Part shown: one piece after another, positions 12,689-48,340 of the stretch | How the letters are laid out: each line of letters opens with the position of its first letter | Numbering within the stretch: the first letter of the stretch is position 1 | Source: Candidatus Poribacteria bacterium | GTDB lineage: Bacteria > Poribacteria > WGA-4E > WGA-3G | NCBI GenBank assembly: GCA_963668035.1 | Contig: OY764073.1 | Coordinates: 4,743,308-4,807,307, forward strand | Length of the DNA stretch: 64,000 nt | Direction: 5' to 3' | Notes under the pieces: model-generated | The model's input: the letters and a program-made list of their open reading frames with translations, nothing else | The model's database searches: none | Told to the model about the DNA's origin: nothing | Program-made: the position numbers and the translations under genes

Positions 12689-13309
12689 TTAGTCTAACGC
12701 ATCAAGATAGCGTCTCGCCTGTTCTCCTGCGTTTTTGGGAGTCATAACCCCGGACATTACAGCGACACCGAAAGCACCGGCAGCCAAGCATTCAGCAACC
12801 CGTGCCGGTGTAATTCCCGCTAACGCGAAGACGGGTATTTTAAGGGTTTCTGATACCTCGGCGAGGCACGCGACACCGACTGCTGGCCCGTATCCGGGCT
12901 TGCTTGCTGTCGGATAGATAGGACTATAGGTTACGAAATCTGCGCCTTCTGCCTCCCGTTTTTGTGCTGCAGCAAGTGAATGCACCGAGCATCCGACATA
13001 AAGGGTGTCCTTTGCCCGTGCTTTTACTGTCGCATTCGCTGGCAGATGAACGCCTGCAGCACCCCGCTGTAGGGGCGAGGTCACCTCGTCCTTACGATCA
13101 GATGTGTTGATGAAAAGTTTCGCCCCATAATTTCGACATAACTCGGCGATCGGTTGTGCCAATTCAATCAACGCGTTATCGTCTAAATCCTTCTCACGCA
13201 ATTGGATAGCCCTGACACCGGCATCTAACAGCTCAGAGACGACATCGGCTAACGGGGTAGGGGCACATCGGTGTCTATCCGTAATAGCATACAACTTAAA
13301 GTCGATCAT
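12689..13309 (-). CDS. thiE: Thiamine-phosphate synthase
   Basis: YAITDR...VRAIQLREKD...GADFVTYSPIYPT motifs of ThiE are present. It lies immediately downstream of rsmB and upstream of thiD on the minus strand. Confidence 0.8.
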   Translation of the reverse strand: MIDFKLYAITDRHRCAPTPLADVVSELLDAGVRAIQLREKDLDDNALIELAQPIAELCRNYGAKLFINTSDRKDEVTSPLQRGAAGVHLPANATVKARAKDTLYVGCSVHSLAAAQKREAEGADFVTYSPIYPTASKPGYGPAVGVACLAEVSETLKIPVFALAGITPARVAECLAAGAFGVAVMSGVMTPKNAGEQARRYLDALD

Positions 13310-15137: not shown

Positions 15138-16541
15138 TCAATCGTCGTCCCAATTTATGCGGTGGAAGGGGGTGCCTTCTGCTTTCGCTTTTCGGACTTT
15201 TTCAAGTTCGCGCCGAACAGTTTCATTCGGCCAAAGCTCATACTTTGCTTCGTAAAACCGGAGGAATTCATCTTCATCCTCTGGAAATCTAAAGCTGCCA
15301 GCCATCAATTTTTTCTTGCCCGCAATGACGGTAAAAACTTCAGGGAAAGGTCCATATTGTGCGGTGAGGTGGCTTTTGTATTCTCTTTCAAAAGTTTCGG
15401 GATCATCTGTCTTCTTCCAGAGTTCCATCAAGATAGCGTCTGCGTCTTTACGATACGCTTGATTCTCGGATTCTGTAGCGATGTACTGTAGATAAAGTTG
15501 CGCCCGTAGGAACTCGTCACGCTGAGCGTATACCAACCCTGATCGGAACAGGATCTCTTCAGCGGCCTGAATGTAATTTTCGTTCTTCCCATGTTTGATG
15601 ATCCATTGTAAACTCTCCGGTGACACGCTACCCCGGTAGTGGTATACCAACCCTAAGTAGAATCTGTATGTCTCACATTGGTAGATAATGTCCCCGTGCC
15701 GAACCATCTGATAATTATACGCACCCAATAGCTGAATAAGGAACTTGTTATTGCCGGCATAGAATCTTTCGTTATTCAAGACGTAAGCGTTTCCATCCCA
15801 CTCGTAGAGGGTCATCCATTCCAGATGCGGTGCGCCCGGGACATCTTCAATATGTATGCTGTATGGAATTTTAATTTCGTAGGTGCCATCGTTATCCAAG
15901 TCAACGTACTCGGCATCAGATAGAAATCCGGGAACCGTATAGCAGCTAAAGACTGTCTTGAACTCGCCGTTTTGAAAGGCGATCACAGCCACACCGTAGG
16001 TAGATTCGAACCATATATCTAAAATGCCATCGCCTGTCAAATCAAGTAGTCTAACACCTGCATCGCGAGACTTAAGCGCGCTTTTCGGGGGTTGTGTGAA
16101 GACGAAGGGTGGACTCTGAAGTTCAACGGTTTTCGCTGGCACCTGCAAATCACGAGTGCCTGTATCAAAAAGTTTGAAAGCGTCTTTTTTCTGCAGTGCC
16201 CCCGCTTCGTTCTTAGCAATGAAGAGAAACGCTTGGATCCAGTTCCCGGTGTCTGGGTATGTATGCTTTTCCATAATATCATCCACCAGCATTAGAACAA
16301 CGATCTCTTTTTCGAGGGTGTCGTCAATATTTGCGGTGGCTGTCATCCGGGTCAGGTAAAAGAGGCCTTCGGGTGCCGGATCAGGTAAAAACCTGTGATA
16401 CTTTTGTCCCTTATTTGAATAATACCGTTGATACTCGACATCAGGTGTTATCGTTTTAGCGGTATCCGCATTCGCTGGAAAAGAGGTGAGTATCAGCAAA
16501 ATAGCAAGTGCTAAAAGTGCGCCACGAATATGTTGATTCAT
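15138..16541 (-). CDS. Secreted hypothetical protein, paralog A (467 aa), with DxDxDG-like motifs
   Basis: It has a signal peptide. Conserved blocks shared with 16681..17709 include VDLTGDGILDIW, YVDLDNDGTYEIK and LEWxxLYEWDGxxYVLNNERFYA. Confidence 0.5.
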   Translation of the reverse strand: MNQHIRGALLALAILLILTSFPANADTAKTITPDVEYQRYYSNKGQKYHRFLPDPAPEGLFYLTRMTATANIDDTLEKEIVVLMLVDDIMEKHTYPDTGNWIQAFLFIAKNEAGALQKKDAFKLFDTGTRDLQVPAKTVELQSPPFVFTQPPKSALKSRDAGVRLLDLTGDGILDIWFESTYGVAVIAFQNGEFKTVFSCYTVPGFLSDAEYVDLDNDGTYEIKIPYSIHIEDVPGAPHLEWMTLYEWDGNAYVLNNERFYAGNNKFLIQLLGAYNYQMVRHGDIIYQCETYRFYLGLVYHYRGSVSPESLQWIIKHGKNENYIQAAEEILFRSGLVYAQRDEFLRAQLYLQYIATESENQAYRKDADAILMELWKKTDDPETFEREYKSHLTAQYGPFPEVFTVIAGKKKLMAGSFRFPEDEDEFLRFYEAKYELWPNETVRRELEKVRKAKAEGTPFHRINWDDD

Positions 16542-16680
16542 GTTTTTTCTCCGATTCGGTCTTAGAACTTATGCCTCGTATTCATACATCCCCGTGATAA
16601 ATCGTAGGGGTGAGGTCTCCTCGTCCGCTTTTCGCGTAAGTTCCGGGTTTGTTAGATGTCATACACAGTTGGTCTGTTCT

Positions 16681-17709
16681 TCAATAGGATGGGAGTTTTT
16701 TCAGGAGTGATTCAGCGGCTTGGATGTAAACTTGCTGCTCGGCATGTTCAACGACCCGCTGTAGGTGCCTTCGTGCCATTGAGGTGTCGCCTCGATAGTA
16801 ATATACCAACCCTACGTAGAAACTGTATGGTTCGTATTTTCCATACCAAATCAGTGCACTATTATACTGCTGCAATAACCCAATGAGGAACTCGTCATTC
16901 TTGGCATAGAACCTTTCGTTATTCAAGATGTATGTGGTGCCATCCCACTCGTAGAGGTTCGTCCATTCCAGATAGCGCACCCCAGGAATATCAATCATAA
17001 ATATGCTGCTTTGAAGCTTTATTTCGTAGCTGCCATCATTATCCAAGTCAATATACTCAGGAGCCTGCTCCCTGTAATACACGTAGCAGCTAAAAACTTC
17101 CTTGAATTCACCATCCTGAAAAGAAATAACAGCGACACCATAAGCATGATCAATCCAGATGTCTAAAATGCCATCGCCTGTCAAATCAACGAGGTCAAAC
17201 GAAATCCACTTGAACCCCCAAGACTCACCGCTCCACAATTCCCGGAAAACGAAGGGTAGGTTACGAAGTACAACGGTTTTCCCTGGCACATCCAAATCAT
17301 AGGTCCCCGCATCAAAAAGTTTGAAAAGGTCTTTTTGCTGCGGAAGCCCCCCCTCGGTCTCAGCTTCGGTGATGAGGAGAAACGCTTGGCACCATTCGCG
17401 CCATTCTTCGCCTGCTTCAGCTACCATCAGCACAATCGTCTCTTTTTCCTGCGTATTATCAATATTGGCTACGGCTTTCTGCCGGGTATTGTAAGAAACC
17501 CCTTGCGGTGCAGGGAAATGCAGAAACCGGTGATACTTTCGCCCTTCAGGATCAATCGGCAAATCAGGATACGCTTTATACTTGACATCAGAAGTTTCGG
17601 GGGTTAGTGGATTAGCATTCACCGCCAAACAACTCAGTATCAGCAAAATAGCAAGTCCTAAAAGGATGCTCTGAATGTGTTTCGCTACAATTTTTGTTTT
17701 CCTATACAT
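16681..17709 (-). CDS. Secreted or lipoprotein hypothetical protein, paralog B (342 aa)
   Basis: It has a signal peptide with a possible LSC lipobox. It is about 50% identical to paralog A across the shared region. Confidence 0.5.
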   Translation of the reverse strand: MYRKTKIVAKHIQSILLGLAILLILSCLAVNANPLTPETSDVKYKAYPDLPIDPEGRKYHRFLHFPAPQGVSYNTRQKAVANIDNTQEKETIVLMVAEAGEEWREWCQAFLLITEAETEGGLPQQKDLFKLFDAGTYDLDVPGKTVVLRNLPFVFRELWSGESWGFKWISFDLVDLTGDGILDIWIDHAYGVAVISFQDGEFKEVFSCYVYYREQAPEYIDLDNDGSYEIKLQSSIFMIDIPGVRYLEWTNLYEWDGTTYILNNERFYAKNDEFLIGLLQQYNSALIWYGKYEPYSFYVGLVYYYRGDTSMARRHLQRVVEHAEQQVYIQAAESLLKKLPSY

Positions 17710-17765: not shown

Positions 17766-19964
17766 TCAGTCCCACAGCAGCACTGTACGGTCCCGTCCGC
17801 CACTTGCGAGTGTCTTGCCATCCGGACTAAACGATACACTATAGACGCTACCCGTATGACCAGCAAGTTTTGCCTTGAGACTACCCGTCTCAACGTCCCA
17901 CAAAAGCACCGTATAATCTGGCCACGCATCTCCACTTGCGAGTGTCTTGCCATCCGGACTAAACGATACACTATAGACGCTACCCGTATGACCAGCAAGT
18001 TTTGCCTTGAGACTACCCGTCTCAACGTCCCACAAAAGCACCGCCTGGTCCCCGGCATCCCGACTTGCACTGACAAGTGTCGTGCCATCCGGACTAAACA
18101 ATACTTGCCTGATTTCACCCTTATGCGCGAGTGTCCTTGTGACCTCACTGGTCGTAACATCCCACAAAAGCACCTTATGTGTATTGTCTATCTCACTTCG
18201 ACTTGCACTTGCGAGTGTCTTACCATCCGGACTAAACAATACGTTGTAGACACTGCCCGTCCGGCTGGTGAGTTTCGCTTTCAGGGTGCCCGTCGTAACG
18301 TCCCACAAATGAAGAACCTTACTGTCCCGAACCGCACTTGCGAGCGTCTTGCCATCCGGACTAAACGATACATTCCAGACGACATCCGTATGCGGTGTCC
18401 TTTTGACCTTACCTGTCGCAACATCCCACAAAAGTACCGTATATTTATAACCCTCCCCATGAATTCGACTCATACAGGCAAGTGTCTTGCCATCCGGACT
18501 AAACGATACACTATAGACCTCCCCTGTACGACCGGTGAGTTTCGTTTTGAGGGTGCCCGTCACAACGTCCCACAAACGCACCTTACCGTCCCAACTTGCA
18601 CTGGCAAGCGTAGCCCCATCCGGACTGAACGACACACTCCTAACTTCACCCATGTGTTCGGTGAGAGTCGCTTTCACAGTCCCTGTCTCAACGTCCCACA
18701 AACGCACTTTATCTTTAGCTCCCCTCTGACTTTGACTCCAATAGGCAAGTGTGTTACCATCTGGACTGAACAACACACGCTTAACCGCATCCGTATGTCC
18801 GGTGAGAACCGCTTTCACAGTCCCTGTCGTAACATCCCACAAACGCACTATATCGTCCTGGTCTCCGCTCTTACTCACAAGCGTTTTGCCATCTGGACTG
18901 AACAACACACGCTTAACCGCATCCGTATGTCCGGTGAGAACCGCTTTCACAGCACCCGTCGTAACGTCCCACAAACGCACTGTTTTGTCTGCACTCCCAC
19001 TTGCGAGTGTTTTGCCATCTGGACTGAACACGATACTACTGACCACATCTGTATGTCCAATGAAGGTTGCTTTTACCGTACCGGTCCCAATGTCCCACAA
19101 ACGCATCCCATACTCTCGGTCCCACTTATTATTGTCGGCACTTGCGAGCGTTTTACCATCTGGGCTGAATGATAAACTATTGACCCAATCCCCAGGTTGA
19201 GTGAGGGTCACTTGTACCTCACCGGTTGCAACGTCCCACAAACGAATTGTTTTGTCATAACTACCTGCAAGCGTTTTGCCATCTGGACTGAACGATAAAT
19301 TCCGAATCGCGAAATCCTCTCCCATGAATTTCGCTTTCAGGGTGCCCGTCACAACGTCCCACAAATGAACCGTACTGTCATAACTCCAACCACCACTCAC
19401 AAGCGTCTTGCCATCCATGCTAAACCAGACACTACCAACCGCGTTCTCAGGCTCGGTGAATTTCGCTTTCAACGAACCCGTCGCAACGTCCCACAAACGC
19501 ACCGTACTGTCATAACTTCCGCTCGCAAGTGTAGCACTATCCGGACTGAACGATAAACTCCCGATCCGACTCGTATGTCCGATGAATGTACCTTTCATAT
19601 TACCCGTCGTAACGTCCCACAAACGCACCATACAGTCCATATCCGCACCGCCGCTGGCAAGTGTCTTACCATCCGGACTAAACGCCAAACTATAGACCCA
19701 ATCCATACCGCCCGCAAGAAATGCCTGTTCTTCGGATGTTTTCGTATCATACAGCCATATACCGATATTACTCCCTACCGCGAGCAACGCACCGTCCGGA
19801 GAATACGTTATTTCTCCTATACTGCCTTTACCGAGACGTGCTTTGGCACCCTCGGGTAAACTGAATTGGGTATATGCCACAGATTGTGCGAACCCCGGAA
19901 AAATACTGACGCTCGAAACTATCAGGAGCGTTAAGGTCAACAAAAACGTTCTTCTTACTTTCAT
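17766..19964 (-). CDS. Secreted WD40-repeat beta-propeller protein (732 aa, about 16 WD repeats)
   Basis: A signal peptide MKVRRTFLLTLTLLIVSSVSIFPGFAQS is present. The repeated units are SFSPDGKTLASG...VRLWDV.TG. The C-terminal repeats are identical at protein and DNA level. Confidence 0.85.
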   Translation of the reverse strand: MKVRRTFLLTLTLLIVSSVSIFPGFAQSVAYTQFSLPEGAKARLGKGSIGEITYSPDGALLAVGSNIGIWLYDTKTSEEQAFLAGGMDWVYSLAFSPDGKTLASGGADMDCMVRLWDVTTGNMKGTFIGHTSRIGSLSFSPDSATLASGSYDSTVRLWDVATGSLKAKFTEPENAVGSVWFSMDGKTLVSGGWSYDSTVHLWDVVTGTLKAKFMGEDFAIRNLSFSPDGKTLAGSYDKTIRLWDVATGEVQVTLTQPGDWVNSLSFSPDGKTLASADNNKWDREYGMRLWDIGTGTVKATFIGHTDVVSSIVFSPDGKTLASGSADKTVRLWDVTTGAVKAVLTGHTDAVKRVLFSPDGKTLVSKSGDQDDIVRLWDVTTGTVKAVLTGHTDAVKRVLFSPDGNTLAYWSQSQRGAKDKVRLWDVETGTVKATLTEHMGEVRSVSFSPDGATLASASWDGKVRLWDVVTGTLKTKLTGRTGEVYSVSFSPDGKTLACMSRIHGEGYKYTVLLWDVATGKVKRTPHTDVVWNVSFSPDGKTLASAVRDSKVLHLWDVTTGTLKAKLTSRTGSVYNVLFSPDGKTLASASRSEIDNTHKVLLWDVTTSEVTRTLAHKGEIRQVLFSPDGTTLVSASRDAGDQAVLLWDVETGSLKAKLAGHTGSVYSVSFSPDGKTLASGDAWPDYTVLLWDVETGSLKAKLAGHTGSVYSVSFSPDGKTLASGGRDRTVLLWD
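17803..18043. repeat. Near-identical tandem DNA duplication (about 130-bp unit, 2 copies) inside the WD40 gene
   Basis: The ~110-bp core CACTTGCGAGTGTCTTGCCATCCGGACTAAACGATACACTATAGACGCTACCCGTATGACCAGCAAGTTTTGCCTTGAGACTACCCGTCTCAACGTCCCACAAAAGCACCG occurs twice, starting at 17803 and at 17937. Confidence 0.8.
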
Positions 19965-25125: not shown

Positions 25126-25803
25126 GACGGTTTGCGGTGTAAAAGTTGGGTTCCCGTGTTGTCGCTGCGTCAGGGAGCCGCCCGCACCTCTAAAGAGTAT
25201 CGCACCTCGCAAAAGTCGTATTGGGCGTTGCATTCTCAATCACGTGTTAATTATACGATATTTTTTGGGTGTAGGGAAATAGAAAATGCGTCAAAATATT
25301 GTGATTCTATTGTTTATCTATGTATGATTCAATTTTTGTGCATTTTTTTCGGCGGTCAGTTATCAGTAAGTTGGCTATCAGCAGAGAAAAAATATATTGT
25401 TGTCTGCGTTTCTGTGAAAGTTATGAAATTTCACAGTATTTCACAGTAAGGATTCAAAAAAGTGTTTCGGTTACGGCTACGAAGTAAGGTGTGGCAAGGG
25501 TTTTGAAGGGACTATGAACCTTATCAATTTTTTGCGTACCTGTGAAATTATGATTTTAATGTGCGGGTTGTTTTGCTGACAAACGCAGTGGCGGGACGGG
25601 TTTACGGGCGTTTCTATTTTTGACACTTAAAACGAGTTGCTGTGAAATGTTTGTTGATGTGTCTAAGGTTCTGGGATCGTTGTTTTGCGGCGCGTTGTTA
25701 TGTTGTTAGGATGTGGTGCACTGCACGTCGGATCGCTGCCAAAAACTTTACACACCCGCAGTGTTACGTTTCTTAGCCATTACGCCCCTCCCATAAGTTA
25801 GGT

Positions 25804-26523
25804 TTAAAGTGTTTCTGTCTTTAGATAGCGTTTTAGAAATTCATCCAGGTTGAAGCAACATTCTTTGTACTTCTTGCCGCTTCTGCACAGACACGAACTA
25901 TTTAGGCAGGACTTTATAGGTTCAACGTCGTTAAAGTGACATTTTTTGTATTTCTTGCCACTATCACAAGGACACAAGTCGTTTCTACCAAGGTCGTACC
26001 GCGCGTAATTGATCATTTCAGCGAGGTACTCTCTGATCCCTTCGTCACCATGTGAGTATTCTTCCCAACGATCATTGTTACTCACATCAGTACCGAATTT
26101 TTCCACGTAAGAAAGACGATAGAAAAATGGAATTACGCGTTCGTGCATAAAAGATTTAATTCTAAGAGTTTGGTTCTCAGGACGTTTTATGCCTAGACAA
26201 CAAGTATTATCCTCTGGATTGATATGCAAATCAATGATATTAACGTTGCATTTTTGGGCGATTTCACGGTGCCTTTTACCGACTTCATATACTTTTGGCC
26301 ACCCATTCATGTCCAAATCTTCTAAGCATATTTCAACCTCAAAAACATCGCGAATCAAGAAACCTATTTCATCAGCAAAATTGCCAATTATCACTTTTCT
26401 CGCCTTGTCATCGTACACAGCACAGAAGTCAAGTTCACCTATGATTTTCCGGCATTTTTCGTCATATTGCAGGTTGGGAAAATGTCTATTTAACCATTTG
26501 ATTTCATCGGTACTTATCTTCAT
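25804..26523 (-). CDS. E2 (UBC)-like protein with two C-terminal SEC-C zinc-finger motifs; candidate CBASS Cap2-short partner
   Basis: LHINPEDNTCCLGI resembles the UBC HPN...ICL catalytic motif. CPCDSGKKYKKCH and CLCRSGKKYKECC are SEC-C motifs. It lies 6 bp downstream of the SMODS cyclase gene. Confidence 0.45.
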   Translation of the reverse strand: MKISTDEIKWLNRHFPNLQYDEKCRKIIGELDFCAVYDDKARKVIIGNFADEIGFLIRDVFEVEICLEDLDMNGWPKVYEVGKRHREIAQKCNVNIIDLHINPEDNTCCLGIKRPENQTLRIKSFMHERVIPFFYRLSYVEKFGTDVSNNDRWEEYSHGDEGIREYLAEMINYARYDLGRNDLCPCDSGKKYKKCHFNDVEPIKSCLNSSCLCRSGKKYKECCFNLDEFLKRYLKTETL

Positions 26524-26529
26524 GGCACA

Positions 26530-27498
26530 TTACCTTGCGTAGAGTTTTGGAGGACTTACGATAACAGGAGCAACCCCTTTATTTCCGTTATTATCTTTAA
26601 GTTCTCCAAAATTGTCACCGAACAACTCTCTCCACTTTTTGACACTTGCATTATGTTCCTTGGCATCAAACGCTTCGTTTATCTTAGCGTTGTAAAGGTC
26701 GAACATTTCTCGAAAGTGACGATATTTGTCTTGGTCCCAGTGTCTTGTAAAACTTTCTGTGGATAAGACTGGATTGCAAATTTCCGGCATAAAGACATTA
26801 GACTGCAAAAAACTGTTTATCCTGTTTGAAACCGTTTTTAGGGACATTGGAATATCCTTAAAACCTTCGCTACCTTCATCGCTAGCATAAACACTGTTAC
26901 CAATCAGGGTGGTTAGAAGGATTGATTTTACAGAAAAGTTACCTTTGTGGTCACGGAGAAATTTTAACAACCGCGTAACCCGCTTTAGGTTTCCATTAGT
27001 CATTCTTGTTTTTTCATTGAACCAATCTCTATAGCCAGTGCCATCAGTGAGTTCAAATTCATTTTCCTTGTTATTACAGATGAAGTACTTTTCCTCTTGC
27101 GTGAGCCAATCTTGTTGGGTAATGCATGGGACAATATCTAAGTGGAAGTCACCAGCATAATCGATATAGACACATCTCGTTCTTCTATGTACCTTATCCT
27201 TATAATTGTCGTTTCCTTTCAAACAATTATAGACATCATTAATGTAATCCCTAGGTTCTTTGTCCTCATCGTACGTCATGTACAAGAGCAGATCCGCGTC
27301 ATATTCGCGCGTCCCGACTGGTTTGATAATTGTTTTCAAACCGTAAGATCCCTGTCGCTCCGTTTTTTCGTACAAATCTAAATTTCCACTGAGGAACGTA
27401 TTCACAGCCGAGGAACTATTATTCAATCTTTGAAGCCTACTCTCATTGAGGTTTACCTCTTGGGAAAGGAAGTCTTGGAAATACTTTATATGCTTCAT
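26530..27498 (-). CDS. SMODS-domain nucleotidyltransferase (second CD-NTase-like cyclase, 322 aa)
   Basis: The GS motif QGSYGLKT, the DxD motif YDADLLLYM and a third acidic residue in CVYIDYAGDFHLDIVP form a pol-beta-type NTase core typical of CBASS cyclases. Confidence 0.65.
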   Translation of the reverse strand: MKHIKYFQDFLSQEVNLNESRLQRLNNSSSAVNTFLSGNLDLYEKTERQGSYGLKTIIKPVGTREYDADLLLYMTYDEDKEPRDYINDVYNCLKGNDNYKDKVHRRTRCVYIDYAGDFHLDIVPCITQQDWLTQEEKYFICNNKENEFELTDGTGYRDWFNEKTRMTNGNLKRVTRLLKFLRDHKGNFSVKSILLTTLIGNSVYASDEGSEGFKDIPMSLKTVSNRINSFLQSNVFMPEICNPVLSTESFTRHWDQDKYRHFREMFDLYNAKINEAFDAKEHNASVKKWRELFGDNFGELKDNNGNKGVAPVIVSPPKLYAR

Positions 27499-27640
27499 TG
27501 ATTTGATTCTCCTTATCTATTAATTGAAAACTCAAAAAAGATCAATGCTGTGTGCCAATTTGCCACTTTTGGGAGGGGGCGTAAAGCCTTTGACACTAAA
27601 TTCGGCACGGCGTTTGTTTTCTAAGGCTCCTCACATAGCA

Positions 27641-27800
27641 CTCCGCTAGAGTGCAAGGAGGGTACCTGTCTTTTCTATAGACATATTGCTCCGCTGGAGC
27701 AAAGAGACCTCTTTACAGATAACGACTTCTTCACGCCAGAGGCGTGATATGTCTATAGAAATCAATATCATTCGTAGCTGCACTCCAGCGGAGCGCTATG
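27641..27800. repeat. Degenerate inverted-duplicate member of the MITE-like TCTATAGACATAT repeat family
   Basis: TCTATAGACATATTGCTCCGCTGGAGC and GTGATATGTCTATAGAAA...GCACTCCAGCGGAGCG form inverted repeats. It shares the CATAGCACTCC(GCT/TAC)GGAGTGC palindrome with the copies at 44226 and 46909. Confidence 0.55.
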
Positions 27801-27865
27801 TGTTGACGAAGGATCGATCGATGGAAACCCCTCTATAACGAGACACTGCCGAAATATTTACACCC

Positions 27866-29032
27866 TTACTTGATTTTGAGCACTGTTCTTAATCCATTCC
27901 GGTCATCATATTCACATGCGAAAATCTCGGGGTCTGATTTTGGCAGAAGAACTCGCCCACATTCAACTGCAATCGGTGCTGGAACTGCTGGGATAATGGA
28001 GATCTTGCAGGAGTCTCCATGGACAGTCTGAATTTCGTTCAGCAATTTCCTATATTCTCGACTGAATCCTTCCAACTGCTTACGAGATTTCAAAAAATAT
28101 ACAGAAGGTTCGTCAATGGTTATTTCATAAATGCTGAAATTCTCCGAAATCAACCCTTCGTATCGGGTGCTATCAATTTTGCCGCTTAGAGACAATACGA
28201 TTGCAACGTTCCCACCACTCTTGTTAATATGGAGAGGGTTCACAATATAACATGTTTCTGTACCTTTTTCTTCCTCGGGCCAGGACCAGGTATGGTTTGT
28301 GTCATCAATATTTCTGTGTGACTGGTACAAATCCGCTGGAAGAGTATCACCAATGCACTTTCCCAAGGACATTAATAGTGGCATGGGACCGATGGCGAAC
28401 ACAGAAAGATGTTTAATCTTTCCTTCATCTACTCCTTCCTCAAAGTGCCACTTGATTTTTTGCTGAATCTCGCTTGCAAAAATCTGCCAGTACTCTGAGT
28501 CTCTATGACCGTCAAAATTGTTATTAATGATGTTAATTCCTTTTTCATCAGTTGGGTATTTGGGAAACATTGCATTACGATATGTCTCGGAGTTAATCGG
28601 AACAATTCTATCGCCTATATTCACGGAGAATAATAGGACAGTAGATTTATGAATATCCTCTGGATGTCTGGTTTGAATTTCAATTCTGTCCTCATGCTTC
28701 CATTTCCACTCGCTCAACAACTCTGGTGGGTATTTATCGGGATTATCATCAATTTCCTTATGGCATCGTCGGCACAGCAGCATGAGATTAGAGAATTCAA
28801 TTTGTAGATTCGTAGACTCTTTGTTCCCTCTTGGGCCATCTTGACTCGCTGCGATAATGTGCGTTACCTCCCCAAAATTTCCATCGGTTAACGTCAGGTC
28901 ATTACGCCAAACGAGTTTGTTACAGCCGCTAAATTCACAACGTCCTGCCGACCTGCCGAATAATTTCAACTTAGTATGCAGCGGAACGTTTTTGCGCGTA
29001 ATTTTGGGTTCTGGTTTCTTATCCTTAGCCAT
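27866..29032 (-). CDS. cap5: Cap5-like CBASS effector: N-terminal HNH endonuclease fused to a C-terminal SAVED domain
   Basis: HNH motif GRCEFSGC...EVTHIIA...NLMLLCRRCHKEID is present. A ~250-aa C-terminal domain consistent with SAVED follows. The gene is immediately downstream of a CD-NTase gene. Confidence 0.65.
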   Translation of the reverse strand: MAKDKKPEPKITRKNVPLHTKLKLFGRSAGRCEFSGCNKLVWRNDLTLTDGNFGEVTHIIAASQDGPRGNKESTNLQIEFSNLMLLCRRCHKEIDDNPDKYPPELLSEWKWKHEDRIEIQTRHPEDIHKSTVLLFSVNIGDRIVPINSETYRNAMFPKYPTDEKGINIINNNFDGHRDSEYWQIFASEIQQKIKWHFEEGVDEGKIKHLSVFAIGPMPLLMSLGKCIGDTLPADLYQSHRNIDDTNHTWSWPEEEKGTETCYIVNPLHINKSGGNVAIVLSLSGKIDSTRYEGLISENFSIYEITIDEPSVYFLKSRKQLEGFSREYRKLLNEIQTVHGDSCKISIIPAVPAPIAVECGRVLLPKSDPEIFACEYDDRNGLRTVLKIK

Positions 29033-29223
29033 ATGTTCAATCTCCTTTTTTCTGTTGTGATAGGTTCAGAATTTGGTTGTTTAATACCTACTGATAATCC
29101 TTTTGAATGAAAGGCAATTCAAAAAATACTACTCTTCAAAAAAATGGCCATGGAAAACCAAAAGTTATGTGTTGCAGCAGATCCGTTAATTATCAAAGCG
29201 ATAGTCTACAAAGCGTCCCTAAA

Positions 29224-30783
29224 CTACTCGATATTTACAACGAATTCTCCACTCCGTGCACAGCATATACTGTCTTTGACAATAAAGCATTCAATCCAAT
29301 GGACACCTTTGTATCGGGTACTTTCTTTCCGTATCGCACCCTCTGTTTCAATAGTGCCTTGGTAGAAGCCTCCACGAAGCCCATTTTCTTTATATGCCTC
29401 GGGTCCAGTATTTACAACTTGCCAATGAACTTTGTAAGGTCTCGGGACATTCGTTTTTGCCTCAAACCGTAATGAACAGGACTTCGGTAATGGTGTTGAA
29501 TCACTTTTGATTTGCCATGGCCGGAATCCTTTTCGAGAAACTGTCCCTGTAATTGTTACTTGCCCATTTGGAATCACGGGCCATTTTGGTTTCTGCCGAT
29601 GAGACACATTAAAACGAGTCAATTCCCAAGAGAGGCTTGCGGCAAGCGTAGAACCATAGTGGATCTTTCCTTCAGAGAGATTTCGCATTGCTTTGTCGAC
29701 AATTTGTTCTCCCAAGTGCGGTTTTAGTGATTTCCTAACGCTCTGGATATCACTGATTTCTAACGCGTAGGTTAGATCTAACTGTGCCTGTTTAATCCAA
29801 TCCATGAAACACTCCTTTCGGATAGGATGTTCCTGCCATTTATCGGCAAAGTTCTCAAGTGGATTTACTGGATTGCGTATGAGAGTCATGCCATTATCAT
29901 CACGTTTAATATGCTTATGCATGTTACTTACGACATTTAACAGGGCTTCTTGAAGGTCGGCTTCGTTGTTGTAAGCAAGAGCGGCGAGTGTCGTAATGAT
30001 GATAGAAATCGGTTTAGCCTTTTCATCGTAATGAGATTTGTTTTCTTCAAACCAGATGTCACGGTGTCGTTTTAATATCTGAATTGTTCGCTGAAGTGGC
30101 GTTTTGATTTTATACTCCGGAACATCCTCAACTCGCAGTTGAATCGATTCAGCAAGAGACTTTCGGATCGCGTTGAATTGAATTTCCATACAATTTTTGA
30201 ACCATTCTGCATATCCCTTTGGATTACTACAAGGCCAGTCTGGATGGATTCGCATGTAATTAGGATAAGTCCTATCGGTGATGGCAATCGCGAAATCTGA
30301 CCAGTTAGACTTTGGATAACCTTTTGATTCAAGAAGTTGTCTGAATGACTCTGAGTCTGGAATCGCGGGCAAAATATCCATGTGGAATTGGACATCATCA
30401 GCGTAATGAAGCGTCCAACAACGTCGCCCTTCTTCTGCTGGCGAATTCATGTTGCGCGCGTTAGCATAAAGCTTGATTTCCTCACCAACTAAATTCTTTA
30501 GATATGCTTGGCTAATTGTGTTTTTCTGAAGACTCAACTCGCTGACAAGGTCTATGTCATACTCCTCGGCATCGGAAATAGGTTTAGTGACCGTACCAAG
30601 TAGGAACGAACCTTGGGGATAAACTTCGGGATTGTCCTGAACAACTCCAGATTTATCCCGTTCAAGCCAATCACCGATAGATTTATAGCGTTCTACGGCA
30701 CGTTCGTAATAACTTGTAGGGATATCCAATGCATCAGATATAGCTTCAAGCAGTGGACTGAACTGTTCTGAATAAATGTGCAT
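29224..30783 (-). CDS. cGAS/DncV-like nucleotidyltransferase (CD-NTase, 519 aa)
   Basis: PQGSFLLGT is the GS motif, EEYDIDLV the DxD motif and a later DVQFHMDILPA supplies the third Asp. The gene lies between capV and cap5. Confidence 0.65.
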   Translation of the reverse strand: MHIYSEQFSPLLEAISDALDIPTSYYERAVERYKSIGDWLERDKSGVVQDNPEVYPQGSFLLGTVTKPISDAEEYDIDLVSELSLQKNTISQAYLKNLVGEEIKLYANARNMNSPAEEGRRCWTLHYADDVQFHMDILPAIPDSESFRQLLESKGYPKSNWSDFAIAITDRTYPNYMRIHPDWPCSNPKGYAEWFKNCMEIQFNAIRKSLAESIQLRVEDVPEYKIKTPLQRTIQILKRHRDIWFEENKSHYDEKAKPISIIITTLAALAYNNEADLQEALLNVVSNMHKHIKRDDNGMTLIRNPVNPLENFADKWQEHPIRKECFMDWIKQAQLDLTYALEISDIQSVRKSLKPHLGEQIVDKAMRNLSEGKIHYGSTLAASLSWELTRFNVSHRQKPKWPVIPNGQVTITGTVSRKGFRPWQIKSDSTPLPKSCSLRFEAKTNVPRPYKVHWQVVNTGPEAYKENGLRGGFYQGTIETEGAIRKESTRYKGVHWIECFIVKDSICCARSGEFVVNIE

Positions 30784-30799
30784 ATTTCAAAATTCCTTC

Positions 30800-31735
30800 T
30801 TATTTATGGAAAGCATTGAAGGGTTCAGTGGGATTACGCAAAAAAACCTCGCGGAGTTTAGGCAACGCGTGCCGAGCTTGAAACGTCCCAAGACCTTTCA
30901 AGGAGTCAATTTCTTCTATTCCGTCCAAACTAAATTTCCCTTTGGACACATCTTCGTCAATTCTGATGATGTTATCGTGTCCTGCAAGAAGTTGTGCTGT
31001 TCCGAGAGACGCACTAGATTGTGCATGCATAAATACATCAAGAAGCTTAAATGCCCAATATGATTTACCGAGCGGACTTTTTCGTCCTCTGTTAACGTTC
31101 AATGGCTCAGTGGTACAACCTAAACTTAAGACCTTTAGAGAATCCCTCGGCCAGTCAAGCACCGTAATTGCCTCAACAACAGACATTCCAACAGGGTTAT
31201 TTGCCCATACACCGCCATCTATCAAAGGAGTTCCAACAGGAGAACGATGAGTGGGAAAGTAAGTTGGAGCGGCAGTGGCTGCTAGAGCTACATCAACTAC
31301 TTTTTCCTTGTAGTCTGTTTCTAATCGTGGATGATGGGCAGTTTTGTATATGCGAACTTTGCCGTTCTCAAGATTTAACGACGGAACAACGAGCCGATTC
31401 CTACTATCGCCCAGTTTCTTATCACCGAAACAGGTTTCTAATGCTTCCTTAAGCGGAGCACTACTATACTTAGTAGTCCCAGGCCACCTGAATTGACGGA
31501 TCCCACGGTTTCCACCAAAGATGACAGGGCCAAACTCCTCGTAAAAATTTAATAATTCCTTTGCAGACAACCCTAGACCTAGACCAAGGGCAATAATTCC
31601 ACCTGTTGAGGTGCCAACGATTAGGTCGAAATAATTCGCTACATTGTCCCCAATAGTATCTTCAACAGTAGCGAGAAAAGATGCGGGACACACGCCCTTA
31701 ATTCCACCACCGTCAATTGTTAGAATCCGTTTCAT
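30800..31735 (-). CDS. capV: Patatin-like phospholipase (CapV-like CBASS effector)
   Basis: DGGGIKG oxyanion motif, GTSTGG serine-hydrolase motif and DGGVWANNP (Asp of the dyad) are present. It sits 16 bp upstream of the CD-NTase gene, as in capV-dncV. Confidence 0.8.
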   Translation of the reverse strand: MKRILTIDGGGIKGVCPASFLATVEDTIGDNVANYFDLIVGTSTGGIIALGLGLGLSAKELLNFYEEFGPVIFGGNRGIRQFRWPGTTKYSSAPLKEALETCFGDKKLGDSRNRLVVPSLNLENGKVRIYKTAHHPRLETDYKEKVVDVALAATAAPTYFPTHRSPVGTPLIDGGVWANNPVGMSVVEAITVLDWPRDSLKVLSLGCTTEPLNVNRGRKSPLGKSYWAFKLLDVFMHAQSSASLGTAQLLAGHDNIIRIDEDVSKGKFSLDGIEEIDSLKGLGTFQARHALPKLREVFLRNPTEPFNAFHK

Positions 31736-43839: not shown

Positions 43840-44225
43840 TGTTCTTCTCCTTGCCAAGTATTTATTCGTAAGTATACTAACAAGACTTCTAAAATATGTC
43901 AAGTACAATAGGTTTGTTTGCAGAGCCATTCAATGCAAGGGGTTTCCGTGCGGTTAGGAAACCGCACCTACCGGGCCCGGGGGTGAAAATTTGATCGAAA
44001 AATGGACAATTGAATGTCTCTGGTTTGTTTGCCGGAGACATTCATATCAGCAAGTAGCAAGTTTTGTGCCAATTTGAAGTATTAAGTTCCGATGGGGTTC
44101 CGATGGGTTTTCTGCAAAGGACGCCTAAGGGTCCTGCACAAAATCGGGCAGATTTCCTTATCAGTTGCCCCCAATAGTGCGGAATTAACACATCGTTAGT
44201 GCTATGGCGCGTTCACACTTTAATT

Positions 44226-44380
44226 AACCTAAGTTGCCACCTATTGATAGACATAGCACTCCTACGGAGTGCGGTCGCTTAGATACACCGTTTCTATAGA
44301 CATATCACCCCGACGGGGTGAGGAAAGTGCCTGACAAGTTTTGTGAAAACGTTAAAAACTTGTTAGTAGCAACTTGGGTT
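44226..44380. repeat. 155-bp MITE-like intergenic repeat, copy 1 (upstream of the ABC transporter binding-protein gene)
   Basis: It is near-identical to 46909..47063, with 2 mismatches and 1 indel seen by eye. It contains the palindromes CACTCCTACGGAGTG and CACCCCGACGGGGTG, plus TCTATAGACATAT. Confidence 0.85.
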
Positions 44381-44571
44381 TAATTAATATCTTGACAATA
44401 TAAGGACAGACTGTTATAATGTATAAAAGACAATATGGACTTCTCTGATTGCCAGAGGGGCATAAATACAATATTGATATGTTATGTTAACAACGATAAC
44501 TAAATTGAATCATGTTGCCTTGTTGCAACGACCTTTTTAATAGAGGTCACATCATAAAGAGAGGGTTTTTC

Positions 44572-46797: not shown

Positions 46798-46908
46798 CAG
46801 AGGAATGGCTATCGGAAACCATCGGTTTTCAGTTAATATCTTGTGGCAGTTACAACATATCTGCCTGCCACAAGGAGTCTCTTTAACGGACAACTGGAAA
46901 CTAATAAT

Positions 46909-47063
46909 AACCTAAGTTGCCACCTATTGATAGACATAGCACTCCTACGGAGTGCGGTCGCTTAGATACACCGTTTCTATAGACATATCACCCCTACGGG
47001 GTGAGGAAAGTGCCTGACAAGTCTTGTGAAAACGTTAAAAACTTGTTAGTAGCAACTTGGGTT
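46909..47063. repeat. 155-bp MITE-like intergenic repeat, copy 2 (between the two permease genes)
   Basis: It is near-identical to 44226..44380. Confidence 0.85.
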
Positions 47064-47088
47064 AATAATAAGAAAGGGACATCACACA

Positions 47089-48276: not shown

Positions 48277-48288
48277 AGTTTGTAGAGT

Positions 48289-48308
48289 ACGGGCGAGGTG
48301 ACCTCGCC
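48289..48308. terminator. Hairpin GGGCGAGGTGACCTCGCCC flanked by GTAGAG...CCCTACAAGAG after the permease gene
   Basis: A 7-bp GC-rich stem lies 12 bp after the stop at 48276. No U-tract follows. Confidence 0.4.
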
Positions 48309-48340
48309 CCTACAAGAGTATCTAACAAGGAATAAAAAAA

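What the first reader, a model, noticed from the sequence alone, without database searches (positions are those of the whole stretch)
27590..27810. MITE-like repeat family (TCTATAGACATAT core with CACTCC-TAC-GGAGTG palindromes) present three times, one copy inside the CBASS locus
Two 155-bp copies (44226-44380 and 46909-47063) are almost identical. They sit in front of the ABC-transporter binding-protein gene and between its two permease genes. A degenerate copy with internal inverted duplication lies between cap5 and the second cyclase. All three contain stable palindromes and a possible -35/-10 arrangement (CTGACAAGT...TTAAAAACT). This is a small non-autonomous mobile element or a shared regulatory cassette. 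The copy inside CBASS may supply a promoter or terminator that uncouples the two halves.
Basis: seen in the sequence. Interest (0 to 1): 0.55.

Follow-up and report, generated by a model that had tools for sequence, protein, structure and literature searches.

The report
Two MITE families sharing hairpin modules
The three repeats are small non-coding jumping elements of two related families, common in sponge-symbiont (Poribacteria) genomes, and they carry the same pair of DNA hairpins that flank an IS200-like transposase gene; this is largely ordinary selfish DNA, although one copy sits exactly where one anti-phage CBASS operon has been spliced into another.

Summary
Two 153-nt copies (44227-44379, 46910-47062) differ at 2 positions. 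The third locus shares only a ~75-nt internal module with them. The two identical copies are a true MITE (family 1). They have 14-bp terminal inverted repeats and 7-bp A/T-rich target duplications. They are present in a 99% relative and precisely absent from 93% and 90% relatives. Copies of 150-156 nt occur in many Candidatus Poribacteria MAGs.

The CBASS copy belongs to a different MITE family (family 2). It spans 27575-27865 (291 nt), wider than reported, and has 22-bp inverted repeats. Sister copies carry 9-bp target duplications. Its core is a head-to-head pair of the shared module.

That module ("A-B doublet") is two tagged hairpins: ACATAG plus a stem-loop, then TTTCTATAGACATAT plus a stem-loop. 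The stems covary strongly and the modules are almost always extragenic. Inverted A-B doublets flank a 153-161-aa Y1 (IS200-like) transposase gene in every lineage examined, as REPs flank a RAYT gene.

I found no promoter or terminator in any copy. A perfect, conserved operon promoter lies just downstream of copy 1. The CBASS copy marks the seam where a cyclase-Cap5 pair interrupts a patatin-cyclase-E2 operon.

Verdict: a new variant of known kinds (MITE and REP), of moderate interest.

The parts
44227..44379 (+). Family-1 MITE, copy 1 (153 nt), inserted 5 nt upstream of the -35 box of the ABC-transporter operon promoter.
   Evidence: 99% identical to copy 2. Aligns end to end with 13 copies from other Poribacteria MAGs. 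Absent from the orthologous site in the 93% and 90% relatives.
44227..44240 (+). Left terminal inverted repeat of copy 1, ACCTAAGTTGCCAC. The right repeat, GTAGCAACTTGGGT, lies at 44366-44379.
   Evidence: Read. The ends are conserved in all aligned copies.
44220..44226 (.). Target-site duplication TTAATTA. The second copy lies at 44380-44386.
   Evidence: 7/7 match. The relatives' empty site reads CAATTAATTCGCTTGACA.
46910..47062 (+). Family-1 MITE, copy 2 (153 nt), in the spacer between the two permease genes.
   Evidence: Absent from the 93% and 90% relatives, present in the 99% relative.
46902..46909 (.). Flanking direct repeat TAATAATA. The second copy lies at 47063-47070. Both abut the element. 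It is 8 nt, or 7 nt offset by one base in a low-complexity run.
   Evidence: Read. The 7-nt register test scores only 2/7 because of the one-base offset.
27575..27865 (.). Family-2 MITE (291 nt). It fills most of the cap5-cdn2 gap. Its right end abuts the cap5 stop codon (TTA at 27866-27868 on the + strand). Its left end lies 76 nt from the cdn2 start codon.
   Evidence: Aligns over its whole length with 10 sister copies and with L014. megablast matches to L014 (87%) and L101 (81%) run to 27863.
27575..27596 (+). Degenerate left inverted repeat GGGGGCGTAAAGCCTTTGACAC (family consensus GGGTGTGTAAAGTTTTTGGCAG). The right repeat, CACTGCCGAAATATTTACACCC, lies at 27844-27865.
   Evidence: 4 substitutions over the first 18 nt of the consensus.
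27631..27705 (+). A-B hairpin doublet, left arm. A is ACATAGCACTCCGCTAGAGTGC at 27633-27654. B is TTTCTATAGACATAT followed by TGCTCC-GCT-GGAGCA at 27672-27705.
   Evidence: nhmmer E = 1.3e-18..
27728..27803 (-). A-B hairpin doublet, right arm, inverted. Its B hairpin is CACGCC-TCT-GGCGTG.
   Evidence: nhmmer E = 2.2e-19. (I3). The same left/right asymmetry in the B stems is seen in the sister copies.
44247..44324 (+). A-B doublet inside copy 1. The A stem is CACTCC-TAC-GGAGTG and the B stem is CACCCC-GAC-GGGGTG.
   Evidence: nhmmer E = 8.4e-19.
46930..47007 (+). A-B doublet inside copy 2.
   Evidence: nhmmer E = 8.6e-19.
44392..44420 (+). Context: the operon promoter TTGACA-17-TATAAT (12/12 match, with an extended TG). 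It is not part of the MITE.
   Evidence: Conserved in relatives that lack the MITE.
25736..25757 (+). A solo, exact family-2-type end (CTGCCAAAAACTTTACACACCC), 46 nt downstream of the E2 gene stop. The cdn2-E2 pair is therefore bracketed by ends of this type.
   Evidence: Only the terminal ~29 nt matches any locus held.
25804..31735 (-). Context: CBASS genes on the minus strand. Patatin 30800-31735, CD-NTase+AGS_C 29224-30783, HNH-SAVED Cap5 27866-29032, CD-NTase 26530-27498, E2-like/SEC-C 25804-26523.
   Evidence: Compared with L127-L129.

Best explanation
[quoted passage not shown] Both families are widespread in Candidatus Poribacteria, the sponge-symbiont phylum the window most likely comes from.

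Family 1 is 150-156 nt long. It has 14-bp terminal repeats (ACCCAAGTTGCYAC) and duplicates 7 bp of A/T-rich target. It inserted twice, recently, in the amino-acid ABC-transporter operon: once 5 nt upstream of the -35 box and once between the permease genes.

Family 2 is about 291 nt long. It has 22-bp terminal repeats (GGGTGTGTAAAGTTTTTGGCAG) and duplicates 9 bp. One older, eroded copy lies between cap5 and the next cyclase gene.

Terminal repeats combined with fixed-length duplications of variable sequence are the signature of cut-and-paste or copy-out transposition by a DDE-type transposase supplied in trans. That step is inferred, because no transposase with matching ends was found.

Both families carry the same cargo, a ~75-nt 'A-B doublet' of two short hairpins. 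Each hairpin is preceded by a conserved tag: ACATAG for A and TTTCTATAGACATAT for B. Family 1 carries one doublet. Family 2 carries two, head to head. The same doublets, in inverted orientation, immediately flank a small Y1/HUH transposase gene of the IS200 type in Poribacteria and in some Bacteroidota. The stem sequences track the transposase lineage. The modules are therefore most likely the DNA hairpins that this enzyme recognises, in the way REPs relate to a RAYT (inferred).

The window copies are thus chimeras: REP-like hairpin modules packaged inside conventional MITEs. Their effect on neighbouring genes is probably limited to adding strongly folding RNA to the transcripts (inferred). 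The CBASS copy marks a recombination or insertion seam (inferred).
For: Family 1:
- 15 full-length copies align end to end with conserved ends.
- 19 end pairs lie 152-158 nt apart.
- 10 of 16 have perfect 7/7 flanking duplications and 12 of 16 have at least 6/7. A control shifted by 10 nt scores 5/7 at most.
- Both window copies are present in a 99% relative and precisely absent in the 93% and 90% relatives.

Family 2 and its end type:
- 11 copies align, with 22-nt inverted ends.
- 7 of 20 +/- end pairs have perfect 9/9 duplications and 10 of 20 have at least 8/9.
- This end occurs 80 times in 41 of the fetched loci.

Distribution:
- There were no matches in viral contigs.

Hairpins:
- Among 142 unique B modules, the stem pairs that the search pattern did not constrain covary.
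- Pair 2 is A-T 69 / G-C 62, 94% paired against 72% after shuffling.
- Pair 4 is C-G 54 / T-A 49 / G-C 21 / A-T 4, 93% paired against 51% after shuffling.
- The modules are extragenic: only 9 of 161 lie in open frames of 150 or more codons, although such frames cover 78% of the DNA.

Link to the Y1 transposase:
- Clustering the ORFs of the loci recovered a 153-161-aa protein beside module arrays in 6 loci.
- It matches Pfam Y1_Tnp at E = 1e-27.
- It scores 73.7 bits against the NCBIfam IS200 model, whose cut-off is 55.
- Its HUH motif (HIH) and its YIENQ tyrosine align with the ISDra2 TnpA.
- The gene is flanked by an inverted A-B doublet and a TTGACA/TATAAT promoter upstream, and by a direct A-B doublet downstream.
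- Two of the three independent loci chosen through the protein rather than the repeat show inverted doublets on both sides, with lineage-specific stems. The third has a single A module upstream and a doublet downstream.
- A homologue (P0013, 83% identical) is recorded on a contig of the same length (5,239,836 bp) as the contig that carries the window's permease at 100% identity.
Against: - No autonomous element with either type of terminal repeat was found in about 1 Mb of fetched DNA. The trans-acting transposase is therefore hypothetical.
- The window's family-2 copy has eroded ends and no detectable 9-bp duplication.
- Copy 2 of family 1 has an 8-nt or offset duplication.
- About one third of the B modules (53 of 165) lie near neither end type nor a Y1 gene. 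Other vehicles, or naked REP-type spread, must exist.
- By sequence the Y1 protein is of the IS200 type. It scores 30 bits against the NCBIfam REP-associated tyrosine transposase model, whose cut-off is 80. The solved E. coli RAYT is not among the PDB matches even at E<=10.
- Most loci were selected through the repeat itself, which biases the context counts.
- Nothing here shows transcription, protein binding or activity.
Confidence: 0.78

Rival explanations
1. The window copies are REPIN/REP-type elements that the Y1 (IS200-like) transposase moves as single-stranded DNA. On this view the 'terminal repeats' are incidental flanks.
For: Inverted A-B doublets flank the Y1 gene. The core of the CBASS copy is a head-to-head doublet pair, like a REPIN. 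A naked core without family-2 ends lies beside the Y1 gene in L006. 53 of 165 modules have no recognisable terminal repeats nearby.
Against: Y1/HUH transposition leaves no target duplication and needs no terminal inverted repeats (established knowledge of IS200/IS605 and RAYTs). Family 1 shows 7-bp duplications and family-2-type ends show 9-bp duplications, of variable sequence, that directly abut conserved inverted ends. The insertion boundaries seen against the empty sites coincide with those ends, not with the hairpins.
Confidence: 0.1
2. A shared regulatory cassette (promoter, terminator or operator), duplicated locally and kept by selection because it controls the transporter and CBASS genes.
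For: All copies are intergenic and lie next to operon starts or internal junctions. They fold strongly.
Against: The same elements sit in dozens of unrelated gene contexts in many genomes and in both orientations. Close relatives have the same operon and the same 12/12 promoter without the element. The scan finds no terminator-like site and no promoter inside the elements. The putative -35/-10 is not conserved within the family.
Confidence: 0.05
3. A family of structured small RNA genes or cis-acting RNA elements, with the hairpin covariation reflecting RNA function.
For: Strong compensatory variation in the stems. Low folding energies relative to shuffles.
Against: There is no Rfam match at gathering score over the whole window, nor at E<=1 over the elements. 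The only hit is a weak lncRNA match at E = 0.097, 16 bits against a 50-bit cut-off. Copies occur in either orientation relative to flanking genes, inside transposon ends, and as tandem arrays beside a transposase gene. Covariation of a DNA hairpin recognised by an HUH enzyme explains the same data.
Confidence: 0.05

Closest known systems
Bacterial MITEs (for example Correia/NEMIS of Neisseria, RUP of Streptococcus pneumoniae, Nezha of cyanobacteria; listed in PMC3733652 and PMC10969869)
   Same: Small and non-coding. Terminal inverted repeats. Fixed-length target duplications. Many dispersed intergenic copies. Often inserted next to or inside operons and co-transcribed. Fold into stable structures.
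   Different: No parent insertion sequence has been identified. The host is an uncultivated phylum. The interior is not a deleted transposase remnant. It is a pair of tagged hairpins that also flank an unrelated (Y1) transposase gene. Two, and probably three, families with different ends carry the same cargo.
REP / REPIN elements and their RAYT transposases (PMC3116915, PMC3337134, PMC5581495, PMC3479197)
   Same: Short G+C-rich hairpins with a conserved 5' tag. Extragenic. Abundant. Singlets, inverted doublets and arrays all occur. A Y1/HUH gene is flanked by the repeats in inverted orientation. The stem sequence covaries with the transposase lineage.
   Different: The tag is 13-15 nt (TTTCTATAGACATAT) rather than the tetranucleotide GTAG or CGTC. 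The unit is a doublet of two different hairpins. The protein scores as IS200-type, not as a RAYT. Two paralogues can lie 1.8 kb apart (L091). Many dispersed copies travel inside elements with terminal repeats and target duplications, which RAYT-type mobility does not produce.
BIMEs of E. coli and BOX elements of S. pneumoniae (mosaic, modular repeats; PMC3049150 for BOX; BIME from general knowledge)
   Same: A mosaic build from a few short modules in variable number and orientation, including tandem arrays (101-nt units in L006, 51-nt units in L116).
   Different: Different sequences and hosts. Here the modules are linked to a neighbouring transposase gene and are embedded in MITEs.
IS200/IS605 insertion sequences and their palindrome-associated derivatives (PATEs)
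   Same: The associated protein is a clear IS200-type Y1 transposase with HUH and Tyr motifs. Subterminal hairpins act as recognition elements.
   Different: In IS200/IS605 the left- and right-end hairpins lie in the same orientation on one strand, and there are no terminal inverted repeats or duplications. Here the flanking doublets are inverted and the window copies have both features.

Membership tests
MITE | Short (under ~500 bp) and without coding capacity | tested here: met
   The elements are 153 nt and 291 nt. No ORF of 80 or more aa is listed inside them.
MITE | Terminal inverted repeats | tested here: met
   Family 1 has 14-bp repeats conserved in 15 copies. Family 2 has 22-bp repeats conserved in sister copies. 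The window copy's repeats are eroded.
MITE | Target-site duplication of fixed length | tested here: met
   Family 1: 7 bp, perfect in 10 of 16 copies, and 7/7 for window copy 1. Family-2-type ends: 9 bp, perfect in 7 of 20 pairs. The window's family-2 copy itself has none.
MITE | Multiple dispersed copies, and insertion polymorphism (empty sites) | tested here: met
   110 or more blocks across many MAGs. Empty sites for both family-1 copies in the 93% and 90% relatives. No closely related empty site was found for the CBASS copy.
MITE | A cognate autonomous insertion sequence with the same terminal repeats | tested here: inconclusive
   None was found among 130 fetched loci. Whole genomes could not be scanned. 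IS982-like features (AC termini, 7-bp duplication) are a lead from memory only.
REP/REPIN-RAYT system | Short extragenic palindromes with a conserved tag, in high copy number | tested here: met
   The tag is 93-100% conserved. The stems covary. Only 9 of 161 modules lie in long open frames. Per-genome counts are lower bounds, for example at least 8 blocks in CBDBFT010000001.1.
REP/REPIN-RAYT system | A Y1 transposase gene flanked by the repeats in inverted orientation | tested here: met
   Inverted modules on both sides in L007, L029, L111, L116 and L130. L006, L060 and L091 have the tagged modules on one side only; L006 and L091 carry divergent hairpin modules downstream.
REP/REPIN-RAYT system | The transposase belongs to the RAYT (TnpA-REP) sequence family | tested here: not met
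   NCBIfam REP_Tyr_transpos scores 30.1 bits against a cut-off of 80. The IS200 model scores 73.7 bits against a cut-off of 55. The PDB matches are ISDra2 and IS608 TnpA, not the E. coli RAYT.
REP/REPIN-RAYT system | The transposase is single-copy and vertically inherited | tested here: inconclusive
   P0096 lies in one conserved neighbourhood in 9 assemblies, and most clusters are on 1 to a few contigs. Against that, L091 holds two paralogues, several paralogues share one contig, and neighbourhoods differ between species.
REP/REPIN-RAYT system | Copies spread without terminal repeats or target duplication | tested here: not met
   The window copies and most dispersed sister copies have terminal repeats and duplications.
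IS200/IS605-derived PATE | No terminal inverted repeats, no duplication, end hairpins in the same orientation | tested here: not met
   Terminal repeats and duplications are present. The doublets that flank the Y1 gene are inverted.
Rfam RNA family | A match to a curated covariance model | tested here: not met
   No hit at gathering score. Nothing meaningful at E<=1.

The most novel reading that the evidence does not exclude
The A-B doublets are a previously undescribed class of REP-like elements, with four distinguishing features. (1) The tag is long (13-15 nt) and conserved between Poribacteria and Bacteroidota while the stems diverge. (2) They are maintained by an IS200-type Y1 transposase rather than a RAYT-type one, which has taken on a RAYT-like lifestyle. 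(3) They have been captured repeatedly by at least two DDE-type MITE families, giving elements that two unrelated transposition machineries could move. (4) Recombination at such MITEs shuffles defence cassettes, here nesting a cyclase-Cap5 CBASS inside a patatin-cyclase-E2 CBASS.
Probability: 0.3. Interest if true: 0.55.

Novelty: new variant of a known kind. Interest (0 to 1): 0.4.

Why it matters
- For annotation: these elements explain many long, strongly folding intergenic regions in Poribacteria genomes. They should not be mistaken for regulatory RNAs or promoters.
- For mobile-element biology: hairpin modules that belong to an HUH transposase but ride inside conventional MITEs would link REP-type and MITE-type repeats. 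It would also be a second, independent case of an IS200-like enzyme living as RAYTs do.
- For defence-island biology: one copy lies exactly at the breakpoint where one CBASS operon interrupts another, and a second end of the same type lies just beyond the E2 gene. Small non-coding transposons may therefore provide the homology or the ends that reshuffle anti-phage cassettes in sponge symbionts.

None of this changes a major paradigm. The element types themselves are ordinary.

Tried and rejected
- A cyanobacterial origin (HIP1 sites, Nezha or SDR elements) was my first guess. The genome scan showed Poribacteria instead. The Elhai SDR paper could not be read.
- Rfam: nothing at gathering score or at permissive thresholds.
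- I looked for the same CBASS context in L014 and L101, because they match the window up to the cap5 stop. tblastn found no CBASS genes there, so the match is simply the element.
- I looked for an autonomous insertion sequence between distant end pairs. The L095 pairs (2.7-2.9 kb apart) hold no transposase-sized ORF. No family-1 end pair is more than 350 nt apart.
- Exact-protein look-ups failed for the window's binding protein, for P0121 and for P0013, so the source record could not be fetched.
- No closely related empty site was found for the CBASS copy. L129 has an unrelated 437-nt spacer and L128 has the patatin gene there.
- Viral contigs: no match.
- The sequence beside the solo end at 25736-25757 matches nothing held.
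- Literature searches for Poribacteria repeats, REPs or MITEs found no description of these elements.
Full report
**1. Checking the observation**

The window contains two near-identical copies at 44225-44380 and 46908-47063, 99% identical (family D7). The 13-mer TCTATAGACATAT occurs exactly four times: 27674+, 27747-, 44293+ and 46976+. Even with two mismatches allowed, dinucleotide shuffles give 0.88 matches on average, and none of 100 shuffles reaches the observed six.

An alignment of the three loci shows that the third shares only an internal stretch with the other two:
- hairpin A: ACATAGC(A/G)CTCC-nnn-GGAGTGC;
- a variable spacer of about 16 nt;
- hairpin B: TTTCTATAGACATAT followed by a second 6-bp-stem, 3-nt-loop hairpin whose stem differs between copies but stays paired (CACCCC/GGGGTG, TGCTCC/GGAGCA, CACGCC/GGCGTG).

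I call this ~75-nt unit the A-B doublet. A profile built from 82 such units finds exactly four in the window, each at E about 1e-19, and nothing else at E<=10. There is one unit in each of the two identical copies and two, head to head, in the third locus.

- an SBP_bac_3 binding-protein gene, two BPD_transp_1 permease genes and an ABC ATPase gene on the + strand;
- on the - strand, patatin (30800-31735), CD-NTase with AGS_C (29224-30783), HNH-SAVED Cap5 (27866-29032), a second CD-NTase (26530-27498) and an E2-like/SEC-C protein (25804-26523).

**2. Where the sequence comes from and how common the repeat is**

One scan of 185,579 species genomes used TTTCTATAGACATAT-N4-CC-N3-GG, for which I estimated about four chance matches. 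Nearly all are Candidatus Poribacteria MAGs and single-cell genomes. A handful are Bacteroidota MAGs (Lentimicrobium, Bacteroidales, Cyclobacteriaceae). Viral contigs gave no match.

The window's permease is 100% identical to a protein on a 5,239,836-bp contig. Relatives at 86-90% identity are named Candidatus Poribacteria by NCBI. I could not retrieve the source record itself.

**3. Family 1: the two identical copies**

Fifteen full-length copies from different MAGs, 75-85% identical, align end to end. All start with ACCCAAGTTGCCACC and end with GTAGCAACTTGGGT, a 14-bp terminal inverted repeat. Nineteen end pairs are 152-158 nt apart. Flanks:
- Ten of 16 testable copies have identical 7-nt sequences abutting both ends, and 12 of 16 match at 6/7 or better. 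A control with the right 7-mer shifted by 10 nt never exceeds 5/7.
- The duplications are A/T-rich and differ from copy to copy (TAACATA, TATATTA, TATACTA, TATTCTT and others). They are therefore target-site duplications and not part of the element.

In the window:
- Copy 1 is 44227-44379, flanked by TTAATTA on both sides.
- Copy 2 is 46910-47062, flanked by TAATAATA on both sides (8 nt, or 7 nt offset by one base in a repetitive run).

Empty sites confirm insertion. A 99% relative (L122/L123) has both copies. The 93% (L124) and 90% (L126) relatives have the same operon but lack exactly the element at both positions.

Copy 1 landed 5 nt upstream of a perfect TTGACA-17-TATAAT promoter (44392-44420, 12/12 match). 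That promoter is conserved in the relatives without the MITE.

**4. Family 2: the CBASS copy**

Eleven loci with the head-to-head arrangement align well beyond the reported coordinates. The element is about 291 nt, bounded by GGGTGTGTAAAGTTTTTGGCAG and its inverse. In all sister copies the left arm carries B(TGCTCC) and the right arm carries B(CACGCC).

Ends of this type are very common, with 80 hits in 41 of the loci. They bound elements of several size classes, from 274 to 713 nt. Seven of 20 +/- pairs have perfect 9/9 flanking duplications and 10 of 20 have at least 8/9.

The window copy runs from 27575 to 27865. Its left end is eroded (GGGGGCGTAAAGCCTTTGACAC). Its right end abuts the cap5 stop codon. 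It has no recognisable duplication. The third locus is therefore a different MITE family that shares cargo with family 1.

**5. What the shared A-B module is**

Among 142 unique B modules the tag is 93-100% conserved, while the four stem pairs that the search pattern did not constrain covary:
- pair 2: A-T 69 / G-C 62, 94% paired against 72% after shuffling;
- pair 4: C-G 54 / T-A 49 / G-C 21 / A-T 4, 93% paired against 51% after shuffling.

The modules are extragenic. Only 9 of 161 lie in open frames of 150 or more codons, although such frames cover 78% of the DNA.

Clustering all ORFs of the fetched loci gave one unexpected recurrent neighbour. It is a 153-161-aa protein next to module arrays in L006, L007, L029, L060, L091 (two copies) and the Cyclobacteriaceae locus L036.
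- It matches Pfam Y1_Tnp at E = 1e-27.
- It passes the NCBIfam IS200 model (73.7 bits, cut-off 55) but not the REP-associated tyrosine transposase model (30 bits, cut-off 80).
- Its HIH and YIENQ motifs align with the HUH and catalytic-tyrosine regions of ISDra2 TnpA. The E. coli RAYT structure is not matched even at E<=10.

In gene orientation the arrangement is: inverted B, inverted A, a TTGACA/TATAAT promoter, the gene, then direct A and direct B. Tandem arrays often extend further out.

Those loci were selected through the repeat, so I also fetched three loci through the protein:
- L111 (P0008);
- L113-L121 (P0096, 75% identical, found in one conserved neighbourhood in nine assemblies);
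- L130 (P0023, 75% identical).

L116 and L130 show inverted flanking modules with the same tag but lineage-specific stems: AGCTCC in L116 and CGCTCC/CGCCCC in L130. L111 has a single inverted A module upstream and an A-B doublet downstream, with the common CACTCC and TGCTCC stems. A homologue (P0013) is recorded on a contig of the same length as the source genome.

This is the REP-RAYT architecture (PMC3116915, PMC5581495), carried out by an enzyme that is IS200-type by sequence.

**6. How the pieces fit**

A rough census of 165 B modules gives 39 inside family-1 ends, 45 within 260 nt of a family-2-type end, 28 within 1 kb of a Y1 gene, and 53 in none of these. Some of the last group sit next to a third end type, TATAGTTTGGACAATTTT.

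What is shown:
- the window copies have the hallmarks of DDE-type transposition (inverted ends, fixed-length duplications, boundaries at those ends);
- their interior is the hairpin doublet that flanks the Y1 gene.

What is inferred:
- a DDE transposase acts in trans, although none with matching ends was found;
- the Y1 enzyme recognises the hairpins;
- the MITEs captured the doublets once each and then spread.

IS982-like properties (AC termini, 7-bp duplications) are only a recollection and were not tested.

**7. Effects on neighbours**

Both element types fold far better than shuffles: -54.9 kcal/mol (z = -5.0) for family 1, and -118 kcal/mol (z = -7.6) for family 2 on the transcribed strand. 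The scans find no terminator-like site within the elements and no convincing promoter in 27350-28000. Any effect is therefore likely to be on mRNA structure or stability, as is known for REPs in the malEFG operon (general knowledge). It is untested here.

**8. The CBASS seam**

Comparison with relatives shows two separate gene sets:
- L127 has the CD-NTase(AGS_C)-Cap5 pair.
- L128 has a contiguous patatin-CD-NTase(322 aa)-E2 operon. Its proteins are 85%, 88.5% and 78% identical to the window's patatin, second cyclase and E2.

In the window the first pair plus the family-2 MITE (about 3.2 kb) lies between patatin and the second cyclase. Homology to L128 upstream of that cyclase resumes exactly at the MITE's end, at 27574/27575. 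The MITE has no duplication, and an exact solo end of the same type lies 46 nt beyond the E2 gene at 25736-25757.

I infer that the MITE marks a recombination or insertion junction. It does not demonstrate a regulatory one. L129 has the same Cap5 | cyclase-E2 junction with an unrelated spacer, so the element is not required for that arrangement.

**9. Comparison with known systems, and verdict**

The elements are MITEs by every testable criterion except a known parent insertion sequence. Their cargo behaves like REP/REPIN sequences, with four differences:
- the tag is long;
- the unit is a two-hairpin doublet;
- the partner enzyme is IS200-type;
- dispersal occurs inside elements that carry terminal repeats and target duplications.

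They are not IS200/IS605 derivatives in the PATE sense, and they match no Rfam family. I found no published description of them.

I rate this a new variant of known kinds and of moderate interest. It is two families, not one. It has no support as a promoter or terminator cassette.

Noticed in passing
window 13068-13095 and 48287-48314: A GTAG-tagged perfect palindrome (GTAGGGGCGAGGTCACCTCGCCCCTAC), 93% complementary between the two sites. The second lies between the permease-2 stop (48276) and the ATPase start (48341) of the same ABC operon. It looks like a classical GTAG-type REP, that is, a second and unrelated repeat class in this genome.
   Followed up: no
window 25736-25757: An exact family-2-type terminal repeat (CTGCCAAAAACTTTACACACCC) 46 nt downstream of the E2 gene. 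Only the last ~29 nt match any locus held, so it is a solo end or belongs to an unsampled family. Together with the element at 27575-27865 it brackets the cdn2-E2 pair.
   Followed up: partly
window 25804-31735; L127, L128, L129: The CBASS cluster is a mosaic. A patatin-cyclase-E2 operon, contiguous in L128, is interrupted in the window by a cyclase(AGS_C)-Cap5 pair, which is itself a conserved pair in L127. The 284-aa gene that follows E2 in L128 and L129 is absent from the window.
   Followed up: partly
L066 1745-1610 (minus strand); similar junctions in L075 and L080: A further ~135-nt element with its own inverted ends (ATGAAGATTAAGAATTTAAATGGGTAATT ... AATTACCCAATTTATTTATTAAACCTCAT) sits inside the loop of B hairpins. 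Its two flanking half-stems are of different types (TGCTCC and GGCGTG). This suggests an element that targets these hairpin loops.
   Followed up: no
L022, L078, L084, L109, L115 7233-7260: A third end type, TATAGTTTGGACAATTTTTAGA, directly adjoins A modules. This suggests at least one more vehicle family carrying the same doublets.
   Followed up: no
L036, L043, L045, L055, L077 (Bacteroidota MAGs): The same 15-nt tag, with entirely different stems (GATGCC, AATCCC, GACCCC) and the same head-to-head architecture, occurs in Bacteroidota MAGs. In L036 it lies next to a Y1 gene 52% identical to the Poribacteria one. Either this is an old and widespread system, or it spread by horizontal transfer, or the MAGs are mis-binned.
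   Followed up: partly
L006 1130-1543; L007 5935-6957; L116 3436-3982: Tandem arrays of the modules (units of 101 nt, of 103/189 nt, and of 51 nt) lie directly beside Y1 genes. Gene callers annotate them as strings of 30-95-aa ORFs.
   Followed up: partly
L111 4905-6028; L128 9490-10170: IS630-type (HTH_32 / DDE_3) transposase genes lie next to a Y1 gene and next to a CBASS island. They were not linked to either MITE family, since IS630 elements duplicate TA and not 7 or 9 bp.
   Followed up: no
window 17779-19709 and 15631-17681: Twelve tandem repeats of 126-141 nt (a WD40-like period) lie inside a long ORF. Two ~1147-nt tandem paralogous segments are 76-80% identical.
   Followed up: no
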